Shown here piece after piece: positions 24,404-42,621 of a stretch of DNA of 48,538 bases. The translations under genes were made by a program, and so were the position numbers. The stretch comes from a virus (taxonomy: Duplodnaviria; Heunggongvirae; Uroviricota; Caudoviricetes), in the IMG/VR virus record IMGVR_UViG_2740892445_000002; one strand, written 5' to 3'. The notes under the pieces were generated by a model that was given only the letters and a program-made list of their open reading frames with translations, searched no databases and had not been told where the DNA came from. The first letter of the stretch is position 1, and every line of letters starts with the position of its first letter.

Positions 24404-24946
24404 ATGAACAGATACTCTAAACTTCAAATTCAATTACATTGGCTGACTCTCGTATTAATAGCTATAGCCTGTGCTGCAATGGAACTTCGAGGTTTGTTTC
24501 CTAAAGGGTCTTCCTCCTATTTGCTTATGAGAGAAACACATTACAATGCTGGTATATTTATTCTTCTACTGATGATAATAAGAGTAATTATCAATAATAA
24601 ATATATAACACCAGCTATTACGCCGCCCCCACCTGCATGGCAAATGATATCAGCCAAATTCATGCAAACCCTGTTATACATATCTTTTTTGGTGTTACCA
24701 GTATCAGGACTTGCAATCATGGTTTTTGGAGGTAAAGCATGGAGCCTTCTGGGGATTGATATTCCCACTTTCGCTAACACCGACGGAGAAGTAAAATCCG
24801 TAGCCAAAACTATTCATGAATCACTTGCAAATATTGGTTATTTATTAATCACACTCCATGCTGGCGCTGCATTAATTCATCATTATATTCAGAAGGACAA
24901 TACACTTGTCAGAATGCTCCCTGAGCACCAGCATGATAAAAAGTGA
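24404..24946 (+). CDS. cytochrome b561 family protein (moron in bor position)
   Basis: 180 aa, four predicted transmembrane helices, conserved His positions typical of the CybB/b561 family. Confidence 0.8.
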   Translation: MNRYSKLQIQLHWLTLVLIAIACAAMELRGLFPKGSSSYLLMRETHYNAGIFILLLMIIRVIINNKYITPAITPPPPAWQMISAKFMQTLLYISFLVLPVSGLAIMVFGGKAWSLLGIDIPTFANTDGEVKSVAKTIHESLANIGYLLITLHAGAALIHHYIQKDNTLVRMLPEHQHDKK

Positions 24947-39491: not shown

Positions 39492-40577
39492 TTACCCCCT
39501 GAAGCCTGGCGGAATTTCGGTATCCGGTTCAGAAACATGATTCACACAACGCTGGTTGTTCGTGCCGCTTACCGGGAGCAACCAGGGGTTTTCAAAATTC
39601 CGATCCGGTCCAAAAAACGTCGTCGCTCGCTGAACAAATTCCGTTCCCGTTTTCCCGGTAGTCGCCAGGTATCTTGCGTAACGCCTCACGCCATCCAGCA
39701 TGGCCTCTGGTGGCACCCCCTCGCGTAATCTGGCCTTCCAGGCACTGAAAGCGGATTTCTTCGGGTTTGCCCCGGCACGCAACGGGTATTCCCGCCAGAC
39801 CTGTTCGAACACATCCGGATAATCCACTCGTCCCACAGGCTGCCCGGTGTTTTCCGGGACTACCTGATCGGCTTCCCGCTGAATGGCGGAATCGGCTTCA
39901 GGCTGCTGCAGTTGGTGTGATTGTTCCGGCCTTGCGGTCATCGCCTGCTGCACAGCGCCCGAATCGGCTTCCGGTGTCGTGCCTGCTGGCTGACCAAGAT
40001 TGACGTTCTGAACATCCCCTGCCTGGTTCGTGGCGATTTTTTCGCCATGAAGCATAGTATTTTTATCCTGCTCCTGTTCTTTCTCCTGTTCCTGTTCTTG
40101 GCTTAGAAGCCCCTTTAAAGCCTCTTCGAAGCCCCTTGCTGAATTCCGGCGATTATTCCGCCTCACATCCAGATGGAAATCCGTTTTATATCTGTCGTAA
40201 AAGGCTGACAGAAAGGCGTTTTCAGGTAATGATGCATACTCATTCCTGACACCTGCACAACGGTTATCTCCAGGCTTCAACGTTTCCCCAACCTGCCAGG
40301 CTGCCATTTCATGGACCCAGACCATCTCGGCATCATGGTCATAGCTACAAAAACCAGCTTCAACAGCCCTTTTAAGCCCCTTCGAAGCCCCTTCCGGACC
40401 AAGCCCGGTTTCATGAGCAAGGTACAAAACTGGCAGGTAATACAAACCCAACATATTTGCGTGAGGGGATGTCATCAGGTAAAAAGCAACAACTTGCGCT
40501 TCTGCACCCGCCTTTCTAAGTTCTCTCCCCGTTTCTCCCAGCCAGAATCGCGGGGAAACTTTTGCATAATCACGCAT
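39492..40577 (-). CDS. putative replication protein (YdaU/DUF1376-like)
   Basis: Start set at MRDYAKVSPRFW... behind GACGAGGTG; N-terminal region resembles Rac YdaU-type proteins. Confidence 0.55.
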   Translation of the reverse strand: MRDYAKVSPRFWLGETGRELRKAGAEAQVVAFYLMTSPHANMLGLYYLPVLYLAHETGLGPEGASKGLKRAVEAGFCSYDHDAEMVWVHEMAAWQVGETLKPGDNRCAGVRNEYASLPENAFLSAFYDRYKTDFHLDVRRNNRRNSARGFEEALKGLLSQEQEQEKEQEQDKNTMLHGEKIATNQAGDVQNVNLGQPAGTTPEADSGAVQQAMTARPEQSHQLQQPEADSAIQREADQVVPENTGQPVGRVDYPDVFEQVWREYPLRAGANPKKSAFSAWKARLREGVPPEAMLDGVRRYARYLATTGKTGTEFVQRATTFFGPDRNFENPWLLPVSGTNNQRCVNHVSEPDTEIPPGFRG

Positions 40578-40603
40578 GTTCACCTCGTCTGGAGCCAAAC
40601 CTT

Positions 40604-40647
40604 CCTCTGGTTATAATCTGTGATTCACTAATCAACAGAACCAGAGG
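40604..40647. promoter_or_regulatory. 9-bp perfect inverted repeat flanking a TATAAT hexamer upstream of the plus-strand gene
   Basis: CCTCTGGTT-26 nt-AACCAGAGG with TATAAT at about 40612-40617 and GAGGAGG Shine-Dalgarno at about 40643. Confidence 0.45.
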
Positions 40648-40656
40648 AGGTTCGAA

Positions 40657-41052
40657 ATGGATTTTGCAACTATCACAAGTAGCGTTGTGTTGAGTGCGTG
40701 TGTTGCTGGCGTGGTTTCGCTGGTTAATGGTGCCTGGCAACGCAAATCGGAACGAACCATTGAAGCGCAACGCCGGGCTGCTGAAGCCAGAGCAAAAATA
40801 AGAGAAATGGCTCTCACCCTCGCATTGAAAGAATGGGAGCTCCACCAAACCATATCGAAGGCAAAGGGGTATGGTGTCAGCGGCCCAGAAGTTTACGTCT
40901 TTCGATACTTTCGTATGCTCAACCTGATGGAGGAAGACAAATTCACGATTGAAAATCTCAGACTGATCCAGTACGACTCCATGTGTGCTGTTGCAGCAAT
41001 TCAGGCAGAGATCGAGCGATATCGGGAGAAAAACGGCCTCCCGATGCCATAA
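40657..41052 (+). CDS. membrane-anchored hypothetical protein (opposite strand to early operon)
   Basis: 131 aa, N-terminal TM helix (FATITSSVVLSACVAGVVSLV) then helical domain; strong Shine-Dalgarno. Confidence 0.55.
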   Translation: MDFATITSSVVLSACVAGVVSLVNGAWQRKSERTIEAQRRAAEARAKIREMALTLALKEWELHQTISKAKGYGVSGPEVYVFRYFRMLNLMEEDKFTIENLRLIQYDSMCAVAAIQAEIERYREKNGLPMP

Positions 41053-41056
41053 ACAA

Positions 41057-41278
41057 TCAGCGTTTTTCATCTTTCCAAATCCTCATATCAGGCTTGCGCC
41101 CAATGAACCGACGAAGACAATTTAAAGTCCATCGGGTGAAGTAATCCCTGAAACCAAAGAGATACCAGGTGAACAGATTCACGATAAAATGTCCGGCCAG
41201 AGCCCCACCAATACCACAGGCAAGAACAGTAAAAAAATCAGGTAGATTCACAGCCCCCTCCGTCATTGTTAACGCCAT
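41057..41278 (-). CDS. small membrane protein
   Basis: 73 aa with hydrophobic segments (FFTVLACGIGGALAGHFIVNLFTWYLFGF). Confidence 0.4.
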   Translation of the reverse strand: MALTMTEGAVNLPDFFTVLACGIGGALAGHFIVNLFTWYLFGFRDYFTRWTLNCLRRFIGRKPDMRIWKDEKR

Positions 41279-41286
41279 CCGTGCTT

Positions 41287-41712
41287 TTAGTGCATCACCA
41301 CGGCATTTCCTGCAGGGCCACCACGGTTCATCTGATTGAAACCGGCAATCGCCACTGCGACAAAATCATCAGCGTCTCTCACCAGTCGTTCCCGCGTCTC
41401 CACCAGCTCCCGAAAATAGGCTGAACTGTGGCTGCGCATTCGGGCCACCAGCAAAGGTGGCATTGCCTTTTCGATCGCTGGTAACAACGCCTGAATTTTT
41501 TCAACAGCATCAGGGGTGTCTTTCTCTACCCAGCGGAAAATTTTCTGGGTATTACGAGCTAGGGCTTCCGGATGGCTGTCGCCGTACAGTTCCGGAAATG
41601 TCATTCCCAGTTCAAAATACGCTTTGGTAATCTTCGCAGTTGGTACTTTCTCGCCATCCGGATGCGCCCAGGCATTCATCGCCATGCGGATGTGCTCATG
41701 GCTGATTTTCAT
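41287..41712 (-). CDS. YdaT-like protein (CII-position regulator of Rac-type switch)
   Basis: 141 aa starting MKISHEHI..., immediately downstream of the Cro-like gene. Confidence 0.55.
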   Translation of the reverse strand: MKISHEHIRMAMNAWAHPDGEKVPTAKITKAYFELGMTFPELYGDSHPEALARNTQKIFRWVEKDTPDAVEKIQALLPAIEKAMPPLLVARMRSHSSAYFRELVETRERLVRDADDFVAVAIAGFNQMNRGGPAGNAVVMH

Positions 41713-42019
41713 GAATCATTTGCCTCTTGATATTTCGGGTATGCTCGTTTTCGTCATTTGGTTGCTTCATCAACATATTCAGCGAATAGCATGACGAGCG
41801 TCGTAAGTATGACCAGTCAACATCAGGACGAAGTTCTTCGCACAGAACACCACCTCTTGTTGCACGTTCAATTGCTGGACATCGCTCAGCAGGCAACTGA
41901 CGTACACCTTTGATCCATTGATTTACGCTTGGAGGTGATACACCTAAAAGCCTAGCCATTGCAGATTGCCCACCGACAACAGCACACGCTCGTTTGAATG
42001 AATAGTTCTCTTTTTTCAT
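41696..42019 (-). CDS. Cro-like HTH regulator (YdaS/DicC-like)
   Basis: 107 aa, HTH ...QSAMARLLGVSPPSVNQWIKG...; divergent from repressor gene across operator repeats. Confidence 0.7.
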   Translation of the reverse strand: MKKENYSFKRACAVVGGQSAMARLLGVSPPSVNQWIKGVRQLPAERCPAIERATRGGVLCEELRPDVDWSYLRRSSCYSLNMLMKQPNDENEHTRNIKRQMIHENQP

Positions 42020-42040: not shown

Positions 42041-42125
42041 CGAAACAATATTAGGCGACGCCTAATACAAATGTCAATAGGCGTCGCCTAATACAAATGA
42101 AGTAGGGATTGCCTAATGCAATGAG
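42041..42125. promoter_or_regulatory. operator region (OR-like) with repeated palindrome TTAGGCG-N-CGCCTAA
   Basis: Two full copies (about 42051-42065 and 42077-42091) each followed by TACAAATG, plus a degenerate third. Confidence 0.7.
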
Positions 42126-42144: not shown

Positions 42145-42621
42145 ATGCTTAGTGGTAAAGACTTAGGCCGAGCGATAGAGCAGGCCATTAACAAAAAAAT
42201 TGCATCAGGATCCGTCAAATCAAAGGCGGAGGTAGCGCGTCACTTCAAAGTCCAACCACCATCAATCTATGATTGGATTAAGAAAGGTTCGATAAGTAAA
42301 GATAAACTTCCAGAGCTATGGCGTTTCTTTTCTGATGTGGTTGGCCCAGAGCATTGGGGGCTTAACGAATACCCCATACCAACCTCCCTCATTTCAGATA
42401 CAAAAAGTGAACTTTTAGACATAAACAGCCTTTATCAAGCCGCCTCTGATGAAAAAAGAGCCATTGTGGCTTTTCTCTTATCAGAAAATGCCACGGAACC
42501 TAGTTGGGTTGATCATGACGTTCGCGCCTACATTTCCACAATGGAGATGAAGGTAGGTAAGTATTTGAAAGATCAAGAATCAGAACGGAAAAGCCAGAAC
42601 ATCACCAAAACGGGAACTTAA
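42145..42621 (+). CDS. CI-like prophage repressor (RacR/DicA-like HTH, no peptidase domain evident)
   Basis: 158 aa with N-terminal HTH-like region; divergent arrangement with Cro-like gene. Confidence 0.7.
   Translation: MLSGKDLGRAIEQAINKKIASGSVKSKAEVARHFKVQPPSIYDWIKKGSISKDKLPELWRFFSDVVGPEHWGLNEYPIPTSLISDTKSELLDINSLYQAASDEKRAIVAFLLSENATEPSWVDHDVRAYISTMEMKVGKYLKDQESERKSQNITKTGT

What the first reader, a model, noticed from the sequence alone, without database searches (positions are those of the whole stretch)
40570..41280. Opposite-strand membrane-anchored gene with its own promoter and flanking inverted repeat inside the replication/early operon
A 131-aa plus-strand ORF (40657-41052) with an N-terminal TM helix and strong GAGGAGG ribosome-binding site is inserted against the direction of the minus-strand early operon. 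It is preceded by a TATAAT hexamer enclosed in a perfect 9-bp inverted repeat (CCTCTGGTT...AACCAGAGG), and a 73-aa membrane protein follows on the minus strand. Independent promoters, membrane anchoring and reverse orientation are typical of moron-type superinfection-exclusion or abortive-infection genes; I recognise no family.
Basis: inference. Interest (0 to 1): 0.55.

Follow-up and report, generated by a model that had tools for sequence, protein, structure and literature searches.

The report
PD-λ-6 anti-phage gene in prophage

Summary
A 131-aa + strand ORF (40657-41052) has an N-terminal TM helix, a GAGGAGG Shine-Dalgarno and a perfect TATAAT inside an inverted repeat. It lies against the early-right operon of a Rac-like lambdoid prophage, between ydaT (cII-like) and the replication gene.

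The protein matches PADLOC model PD-Lambda-6 end to end (E 9e-90). PD-λ-6 is a single-gene anti-λ system found by functional selection (Vassallo et al. 2022, PMC9519451). So the moron/defence reading is supported, and the family is already known. Its mechanism is unpublished. Pfam, NCBIfam and fold searches of PDB and BFVD found nothing.

Two points go beyond the published record:
- **Conserved gene pair.** The gene travels as a ~665-bp cassette (40590-41254) with a convergent 64-aa membrane ORF (41057-41251). The partner is present in 17/17 PD-λ-6 loci and 0/100 loci with other cargo, and is under purifying selection. It lies inside the fragment that was tested experimentally.
- **Portable leader.** The promoter/hairpin/SD leader precedes about 25 unrelated small cargo ORFs in lambdoid prophages and persists in an empty slot. 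It folds as a covarying two-tier hairpin.

Favoured mechanism (inferred): a cytoplasm-facing, membrane-anchored effector made in the lysogen, with the partner made from the lytic operon.

The parts
40590..40617 (+). Promoter-like element of the cassette: weak -35 (TGGAGC, 40590-40595), 16-nt spacer, perfect -10 TATAAT (40612-40617). It fires convergently to the prophage early-right (pR-type) transcription.
   Evidence: Sequence. A -10-like TAnnnT is kept at this position in 42 distinct leaders. The empty-slot locus L006 scores as a promoter at the same position, TTGTGA-16-GATAAT. The PD-λ-6 clone with 257 bp of native upstream DNA on a promoterless vector was active (PMC9519451).
40601..40650 (.). 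Two-tier inverted repeat/hairpin that encloses the -10 and pairs an anti-SD (CCTTCC..) with the SD. Outer stem 40601-40611/40640-40650, bulge 40612-40616, inner stem 40617-40625/40630-40639.
   Evidence: RNAfold dG -23.8 (+) and -22.9 (-), z about -6. Covariation on 33 leaders: 78.9% of cells paired against 71.9% shuffled (0/500), 51 double-change cells against 25.7. The functional strand is unresolved. No Rfam family matched.
40644..40650 (+). Shine-Dalgarno GAGGAGG, 6 nt upstream of the ATG.
   Evidence: Sequence. AGGAGGYTCGAMATG is kept before every cargo, partly because the search pattern required it.
40657..41052 (+). PD-λ-6 gene: a 131-aa single-pass membrane protein (TM about residues 5-25) with a roughly 100-aa three-helix domain predicted to face the cytoplasm.
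   Evidence: PADLOC PD-Lambda-6, E 9.2e-90. PHROG 36733, function unknown. No Pfam or NCBIfam family. AF2 pLDDT 83.7 with helices 3-70, 77-92, 98-125. dN/dS 0.03-0.15.
41057..41251 (-). Convergent partner gene: a 64-aa small membrane protein (one long hydrophobic segment plus a basic C-tail). The start is GTG 41251 behind GGAGG, and the open frame extends to 41278. It is co-oriented with the lytic operon.
   Evidence: A homolog lies 4-10 nt from the PD-λ-6 stop in every context examined. It is present in 17/17 PD-λ-6 loci and 0/100 other-cargo loci. dN/dS 0.12-0.36. Consecutive locus tags occur in E. coli and Salmonella. No family in Pfam, PHROGs, NCBIfam or PADLOC.
40590..41254 (.). Extent of the mobile cassette (leader + PD-λ-6 + small ORF) shared between different genomic contexts.
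   Evidence: blastn boundaries against Citrobacter and Trabulsiella loci (40590-41235 and 40590-41254, 75-77% nt identity) and against E. albertii (40639-41238, 83%).
41287..41712 (-). Flanking backbone gene ydaT (cII-like activator family), the upstream neighbour in the early-right operon.
   Evidence: Pfam YdaT_toxin and PHROG 163 CII-like.
39492..40577 (-). Flanking backbone replication-initiation gene (DnaD-like loader/replication protein). Its start codon lies 12 nt from the -35-like hexamer.
   Evidence: PHROG 1701/3729. NCBI start at 40577.

Best explanation
The locus is a PD-λ-6 anti-phage cassette carried as a moron in a Rac-like lambdoid prophage.

Shown:
- The 131-aa protein is a full-length member of the PD-λ-6 family.
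- A family member reduces λvir plating without changing adsorption when expressed from its own upstream DNA.
- The gene lies antisense to the early-right operon, between ydaT and the replication gene.
- It moves as a ~665-bp unit together with a convergent 64-aa membrane-protein gene.

Inferred:
- In the lysogen the early-right promoter is repressed. The cassette promoter (TATAAT 40612-40617) then starts transcription inside the hairpin, which leaves the SD free.
- The product inserts N-out/C-in in the inner membrane with a small helical domain in the cytoplasm.
- There it acts after adsorption on an incoming lambdoid phage.

Favoured mechanism (about 0.4): a trigger-activated, abortive-infection-like membrane effector rather than a block at the periplasmic face.

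The partner gene is co-oriented with the surrounding lytic operon in every context examined where such an operon is present. It would be made only on induction. I read it as a candidate neutraliser or modulator that, together with convergent transcription, switches PD-λ-6 off for the prophage's own lytic growth (about 0.3).
For: - Identity: PADLOC PD-Lambda-6, 1-131 of 131, E 9.2e-90. The gene length equals that of the published gene (Table S2). Both give TM-only results in remote homology searches (Table S3).
- Function: PMC9519451 reports validation of each of the 21 systems under its native promoter and no effect on adsorption.
- Context: ydaS/ydaT/RacR and replication genes flank the locus.
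- Cassette and partner: the same module occurs in five contexts. These are the ydaT/replication slot, a Citrobacter cro/replication region, the Trabulsiella head genes, an E. albertii remnant, and (46% identity) the Enterobacter lysis/terminase region. Partner association is 17/17 against 0/100. Both genes are under purifying selection.
- Topology: hydropathy and 8 K/R in the 23 residues after the TM segment; AF2 model.
- General defence role: remote homologs lie beside HsdR and beside SEFIR/TIR plus Mrr genes.
- Promoter activity in a lysogen: ECs1072, which has the same leader, is detectably and differentially expressed in O157 Sakai (PMC2241611).
- No + strand terminator was predicted between the two genes.
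Against: - The mechanism is not published, and whether PD-λ-6 is abortive or direct appears only in a figure I could not read.
- No fold or domain match constrains the biochemistry.
- I did not see the sequence of the tested protein RRK48647.1, so identity to it rests on the HMM match.
- The -35 is weak and no TSS data were examined.
- The tested clone contained the partner ORF, presumably without its natural promoter. The data therefore do not say whether the partner is needed, neutral or inhibitory.
- Small single-TM prophage proteins are classically superinfection-exclusion factors, which would need no self-immunity partner.
Confidence: 0.85

Rival explanations
1. Classical superinfection exclusion. 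PD-λ-6 sits in the inner membrane and blocks translocation of lambdoid DNA, for example at the ManYZ route. Infected cells survive, and the partner ORF is unrelated to defence.
For: It is a small single-pass membrane protein expressed from a prophage. Adsorption is unaffected. It was selected with λvir. From general knowledge, HK97 gp15, P22 SieA and T4 Imm are precedents.
Against: The conserved domain is predicted to be cytoplasmic, not periplasmic. Remote homologs occur in non-enteric bacteria and defence-island-like contexts where a λ-specific entry route is unlikely. A strictly co-inherited partner oriented with the lytic operon has no role in this model. There is no sequence or fold similarity to known Sie proteins.
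Confidence: 0.25
2. The unit is mainly a regulator of the prophage's own development. It would be an oop-like antisense transcript from a pO-like promoter that reads into the small ORF and the 3' end of ydaT (cII-like). The encoded protein would be secondary.
For: The position and orientation match those of λ pO/oop between cII and O (general knowledge). The leader persists in an empty slot where transcription would run straight into ydaT (L006). No + strand terminator is predicted before 41444-41461, inside ydaT.
Against: The ORF is under strong purifying selection (dN/dS 0.03-0.15). The cassette also sits in head-gene and lysis/terminase regions where there is no cII-like gene to regulate. 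A plasmid clone without the prophage confers defence. Antisense effects may still exist in addition.
Confidence: 0.07
3. PD-λ-6 and the 64-aa protein are both required components of a two-protein membrane defence system, mis-scored as single-gene because the tested fragment contained both.
For: The published clone extends 257-258 bp beyond the gene, which covers the whole partner ORF as arranged here. Co-occurrence is perfect, and both are membrane proteins.
Against: The partner is convergent and has no recognisable promoter of its own in the roughly 60 bp that would remain upstream in that clone. In every prophage context it is oriented to be read from a lytic operon that is silent in the lysogen. 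The 46%-identity relative has a different small ORF, and distant relatives have none.
Confidence: 0.2

Closest known systems
PD-λ-6 (Vassallo et al. 2022, Nat Microbiol; PADLOC PDLC04020; from E. coli UMB6655, protein RRK48647.1)
   Same: Full-length HMM match (E 9e-90). Both are 131 aa, have an N-terminal TM and no other recognisable domain, and come from a lambdoid prophage in E. coli.
   Different: There is no difference at the gene level. The published description is a single gene with no mechanism. Here it appears as a conserved pair with a convergent 64-aa membrane ORF and a leader shared with other cargo genes.
Prophage superinfection-exclusion membrane proteins (HK97 gp15, P22 SieA, T4 Imm); comparison from general knowledge
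   Same: They are small inner-membrane proteins made by a resident phage that protect after adsorption. HK97 gp15 is also a moron.
   Different: No sequence or fold similarity was found. The large domain is predicted to be cytoplasmic. A block of DNA entry was not tested.
λ pO promoter / oop antisense RNA between cII and O (general knowledge)
   Same: It is a leftward-type promoter at the cII-like/replication-gene junction. It fires against pR transcription and towards the 3' end of the cII-like gene. The leader is also present in a cargo-free slot.
   Different: λ oop is a 77-nt non-coding RNA ending at its own terminator. Here the transcript carries a 131-aa ORF (or other cargo), and no terminator is predicted for about 390 nt past the stop.
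Prophage defence hotspots with swappable cargo (P2 tin/old and fun loci; Vassallo 2022, Rousset 2022) and self-immunity designs such as BstA/aba (general knowledge)
   Same: One fixed position in a temperate phage genome holds many unrelated small genes, one of them a validated defence gene. A linked element may spare the prophage's own lytic cycle.
   Different: Here the cargo shares a conserved promoter-hairpin-SD leader, with the swap point at the start codon. Only one cargo (PD-λ-6) has a known function. The self-immunity role of the partner is a hypothesis.

Membership tests
PD-λ-6 defence system | Full-length match to the PD-Lambda-6 profile (the single-gene criterion used by PADLOC) | tested here: met
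   PDLC04020, E 9.2e-90, 295.6 bits, residues 1-131 on profile 1-131.
PD-λ-6 defence system | About 131 aa, an N-terminal TM helix and no other recognisable domain | tested here: met
   No Pfam or NCBIfam hit. TM at residues 5-23. The published HHpred table gives only TM-type hits at or below 87.5% probability.
PD-λ-6 defence system | Carried in a (lambdoid) prophage | tested here: met
   A complete lambdoid prophage surrounds the gene. Relatives lie in prophages in Citrobacter, Trabulsiella and Enterobacter.
PD-λ-6 defence system | Lowers plating of λvir without affecting adsorption | not testable with these tools
   Reported for the family founder in PMC9519451. It was not measured for this allele.
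Superinfection-exclusion proteins blocking DNA entry (HK97 gp15 / SieA / Imm type) | Homology to a known Sie family | tested here: not met
   No Pfam, PHROG-annotated, NCBIfam or fold match.
Superinfection-exclusion proteins blocking DNA entry (HK97 gp15 / SieA / Imm type) | Phage DNA fails to reach the cytoplasm and infected cells survive | not testable with these tools
   Needs infection assays.
λ pO/oop-type antisense unit | Promoter at the cII-like/replication-gene junction directed against pR transcription | tested here: met
   Position and orientation. The same leader is present in empty slot L006 with a promoter-like call.
λ pO/oop-type antisense unit | Short non-coding RNA ended by its own intrinsic terminator inside the 3' end of cII | tested here: not met
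   The transcript carries a selected 131-aa ORF. The first + strand terminator-like site is 41444-41461.
Holin / type I toxin-like small membrane protein (partner ORF) | Match to a holin or small-toxin family | tested here: not met
   No hit in Pfam, PHROGs, NCBIfam or PADLOC. Only the architecture (TM plus basic tail) resembles these families.

The most novel reading that the evidence does not exclude
PD-λ-6 may not be a stand-alone gene. It may be half of a convergent two-gene module: a defence protein made in the lysogen, and a small membrane partner made from the lytic operon that neutralises or tunes it. Separately, the conserved promoter-hairpin-SD leader may mark a previously undescribed cargo hotspot of lambdoid prophages. 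Its roughly 25 other small, uncharacterised cargo families (ECs1072-like, a 97-aa family, a 70-83-aa family, a BssS-like protein and others) would then be further lysogen-expressed defence or conversion genes.
Probability: 0.3. Interest if true: 0.6.

Novelty: already known. Interest (0 to 1): 0.3.

Why it matters
As a gene call this only adds an annotation: the 'hypothetical protein' WP_000344866.1 in this prophage is the validated anti-λ gene PD-λ-6.

The surroundings are more useful. PD-λ-6 has no known mechanism. A strictly co-inherited, convergently transcribed membrane partner gives a concrete handle, through partner knockouts, two-hybrid tests and induction-burst assays.

The shared leader gives a simple sequence tag for harvesting other lysogen-expressed morons from lambdoid prophages. 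These include the ECs1072 family, which is present in roughly 10% of complete E. coli genomes, O157:H7 among them.

Tried and rejected
- **Family searches.** Pfam and NCBIfam found nothing for either protein. PHROGs gave only an unannotated family for the 131-aa protein.
- **Fold searches.** The AF2 model found nothing better than E about 0.8 against PDB and BFVD. The afdb50 library was unavailable.
- **Phage records.** tblastn against 50,697 phage records found no copy. The gene is seen only in prophages and IMG/VR contigs.
- **ECs1072 family.** This cargo at the same slot is unrelated to PD-λ-6 by BLASTP, so a single diverged family is rejected.
- **RNAalifold.** On the leader alignment it returned only a 5-bp SD-loop hairpin. 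The long hairpin had to be specified by hand and tested with pair counts.
- **Strand of the hairpin.** The attempt to decide this from G·U against C·A cells was inconclusive (78.9% against 80.5%).
- **Rfam.** No family at the leader.
- **Other cargo.** Ten other cargo representatives gave no significant PADLOC hit (one weak partial match, PDC-M18A, E 5e-4) and only one Pfam hit, BssS. 'All cargo are known defence genes' is therefore not supported.
- **Terminators.** No conserved + strand terminator lies after the gene. The terminator-like calls do not exceed shuffle expectation.
- **Literature.** No follow-up work on the PD-λ-6 mechanism was found.
- **Chance ORF or housekeeping phage gene.** Rejected on dN/dS, mobility between contexts and the published phenotype.
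Full report
**1. Observation**

- A 131-aa ORF lies on the + strand at 40657-41052.
- GAGGAGG sits at 40644-40650, 6 nt before the ATG.
- TATAAT sits at 40612-40617.
- The inverted repeat is 10 bp perfect (40603-40612 / 40639-40648).
- A minus-strand ORF ends 4 nt after the + strand stop (41057-41278).

Some corrections are needed.
- The -35 is weak (TGGAGC, 3/6), and the consensus promoter scan did not call the site.
- TATAAT occurs five times per strand in the window.
- I estimate that a 10-bp inverted repeat would arise by chance once or twice in 48.5 kb. The hexamer and the repeat are therefore not significant on their own.
- The minus-strand gene most likely starts at GTG 41251, behind a GGAGG, giving 64 aa. 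NCBI annotates it this way in near-identical genomes.

**2. Context**

The window is a complete lambdoid, Rac-like prophage.
- On the minus strand run ydaS/cro-like (41696-42019), ydaT/cII-like (41287-41712) and the small ORF. After the + strand gene come a DnaD-like replication gene (39492-40577) and a DUF977/Ren-like gene.
- A RacR repressor is divergent at 42145-42621.
- The + strand gene is therefore antisense to the early-right operon, at the junction between the cII-like gene and the replication gene.

**3. Identity**

- Pfam and NCBIfam find nothing for the 131-aa protein. PHROGs gives an unannotated family.
- PADLOC gives a full-length match to PD-Lambda-6: PDLC04020, E 9.2e-90, residues 1-131 on a 131-position profile.

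PD-λ-6 comes from the functional selection of Vassallo et al. 2022 (PMC9519451).
- It is clone Lambda-64 from E. coli UMB6655, protein RRK48647.1. The gene spans 426209-426605 and the cloned fragment 425952-426863.
- Each of the 21 systems in that study was validated on a low-copy vector lacking an upstream promoter, with its native upstream DNA. None affected adsorption.
- The authors' HHpred table for PD-λ-6 lists only TM-type hits, with LapA_dom and Phage_holin_2_4 at about 87%.
- No later paper in the library reports a mechanism.

**4. The protein**

- Hydropathy places one TM helix at residues 5-23. No K/R precedes it and eight follow in the next 23 residues, which predicts N-out/C-in.
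- AlphaFold2 on a shallow alignment gives pLDDT 83.7 with three helices: 3-70, 77-92 and 98-125.
- Foldseek against PDB and BFVD gives nothing better than E about 0.8.

The family is tiny.
- There are eight clusters at 90% identity, all Enterobacteriaceae.
- Only 27 representatives at E ≤ 1e-3 were found among 1.84 billion proteins. Nearly all are 100-150 aa, and those examined have the same TM-plus-helical layout. A56 and W60 are nearly invariant.
- Remote members with long contigs lie beside a type I restriction HsdR and MobA (L130). Another lies beside a SEFIR/TIR protein and an Mrr-type nuclease (L132). This fits a general defence role rather than a λ-specific entry block.

**5. A conserved gene pair**

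The same ~665-bp module (window 40590-41254) recurs at 75-83% nucleotide identity in other places:
- a Citrobacter lambdoid prophage, between cro and the replication genes;
- the head-gene region of a Trabulsiella prophage, between the major capsid gene and gpFI;
- an E. albertii prophage remnant next to icd.

The evidence for a pair is as follows.
- In every case a homolog of the small ORF lies convergent, 4-10 nt from the PD-λ-6 stop.
- Across 117 loci that carry the leader, the small ORF is present in 17/17 with PD-λ-6 and 0/100 with other cargo.
- Both genes are under purifying selection: dN/dS 0.03-0.15 for PD-λ-6 and 0.12-0.36 for the partner.
- The partner's family is equally narrow, with seven clusters.
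- A 46%-identity PD-λ-6 relative in Enterobacter lies between the lysis and terminase genes. It has a different convergent 46-aa ORF of the same design, a TM segment plus a basic tail.
- In each intact prophage context the partner is co-oriented with the surrounding lytic operon, while PD-λ-6 opposes it.
- The published clone extends 257-258 bp past the gene. As arranged here it must have contained the whole partner ORF, since the GTG lies 199 nt past the PD-λ-6 stop. This last point is inference.

**6. The leader is portable**

- The stretch from the replication gene's start codon to the ATG of the + strand gene is conserved in loci whose cargo is unrelated. Examples are the ECs1072 family (L002), an 83-aa ORF (L004) and a locus with no annotated + strand gene (L005). 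In L006 the slot is empty: ydaT ends 86 bp from the replication gene, and a promoter-like TTGTGA-16-GATAAT sits at the same place.
- The leader is found in 574 of 5,426 complete E. coli genomes, mostly before ECs1072-family genes, including in O157:H7.
- The full 40300-41700 stretch occurs in only 17 of those genomes.
- A pattern scan found 98 IMG/VR stretches, plus Salmonella, Klebsiella and Izhakiella genomes.
- These gave 42 distinct genuine leaders before about 25 different cargo ORFs of 56-157 aa.
- About half of these loci sit in the ydaT/replication slot.
- None of ten other cargo representatives has a significant PADLOC match (one weak partial hit, PDC-M18A, E 5e-4). One is a BssS-family protein.
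- ECs1072 itself is detectably expressed and growth-phase regulated in the Sakai lysogen (PMC2241611). This is weak support for leader activity in lysogens.

**7. The hairpin**

- All leaders fold into a two-tier hairpin. An outer stem pairs CCTTCC.. with the SD, a 5-nt bulge holds the -10-like TAnnnT, and there is an inner stem-loop. Mean z is about -3 on either strand.
- On a 33-sequence alignment, 78.9% of cells pair against 71.9% in shuffles (0/500). There are 51 double-change cells against 25.7 (0/500). The covariation score is 0.192 against at most 0.08 for slid partners.
- Two caveats apply. The sequences are related, and the structure was derived from them.
- Pairing is equally good on the two strands, 78.9% against 80.5%.
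- A transcript started about 7 nt after the -10 would begin inside the inner stem and would lack the anti-SD arm. The hairpin therefore cannot form in the cassette's own mRNA.
- It could form in minus-strand read-through RNA of the lytic operon, in + strand read-through RNA (where it would lock the SD), or in DNA. Which of these applies is unexplained.
- No Rfam family matches.

**8. Mechanism**

Shown:
- family membership;
- the published anti-λ phenotype after adsorption;
- antisense placement;
- cassette mobility;
- partner linkage.

Inferred:
- expression in the lysogen from the internal promoter;
- N-out/C-in topology;
- action at the cytoplasmic face of the inner membrane.

I favour a trigger-activated, abortive-type membrane effector (about 0.4) over a classical DNA-entry block (about 0.25). 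There are three reasons:
- the conserved domain faces the cytoplasm;
- relatives occur in defence-island-like contexts far from enterics;
- a partner oriented with the lytic operon makes sense as self-immunity for a lambdoid prophage that would otherwise trigger its own defence.

Convergent early-right transcription would also interfere with the cassette promoter on induction. No + strand terminator separates the two genes.

The λ pO/oop analogy is positional only.

**9. Verdict**

The gene is an already known defence system of unknown mechanism. The partner gene and the portable leader and cargo hotspot are new leads that need experiments.

Noticed in passing
window 40590-40656, and loci L002, L004-L006, L014, L016, L020, L028-L125: The promoter-hairpin-SD leader precedes about 25 unrelated small ORFs (56-157 aa) in lambdoid prophages. 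These include ECs1072-like proteins, a 97-aa family (MKVQAVGLFWFR...), a 151-155-aa family, a 70-83-aa family and a BssS-family protein. The leader also persists in an empty slot, which makes it a candidate moron hotspot.
   Followed up: partly
window 24404-24946 (+): A second opposite-strand moron: a 180-aa cytochrome b561 family protein (PF01292, E 6e-25) between the small terminase gene and the lysis genes. It has no PADLOC match.
   Followed up: partly
window 42049-42093: A 16-bp perfect inverted repeat (TATTAGGCGACGCCTA-type arms) lies in the divergent ydaS/racR intergenic region. It is presumably the immunity operator/promoter region.
   Followed up: no
window 41444-41461 (+): A terminator-like hairpin (GCCACC..GGTGGC followed by ATTGCCTTTT) lies on the + strand inside ydaT. 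It is the first possible stop for a + strand transcript from the cassette. Terminator-like calls in the region do not exceed shuffle expectation.
   Followed up: no
L001 1-2397 (E. coli PG20180057, same prophage type): A sister prophage carries an ABC-three-component system (DUF2326 protein, middle component 6 and a further ABC-3C protein) just downstream of the DUF977 gene. This suggests a second variable cargo site in the early region.
   Followed up: no
L132 4473-8257; L130 1-1954: Remote PD-λ-6 relatives (about 20-35% identity) lie next to a SEFIR/TIR_2 protein and an Mrr/NA-iREase1 nuclease, or next to a type I HsdR and MobA. These are defence-island-like settings outside prophages.
   Followed up: partly
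L128/L129 4406-4546 (-): The 46%-identity Enterobacter relative has a convergent 46-aa TM-plus-basic-tail ORF that overlaps its 3' end by 15 nt. This ORF is unrelated in sequence to the 64-aa partner but has the same design.
   Followed up: partly
L006 3827-4299: In the prophage with the empty slot, a RelB/RelE toxin-antitoxin pair sits directly after the repressor-side HTH gene.
   Followed up: no
window 40638-40653 (-); L010 and L012 3982-3997 (-): An alternative small hairpin, GAACC-N6-GGTTC, places the SD in its loop on the + strand. On the minus strand it is followed by a U-rich tract, giving a terminator-like call in three contexts. It may explain why the GGTTCGA spacer is conserved.
   Followed up: no
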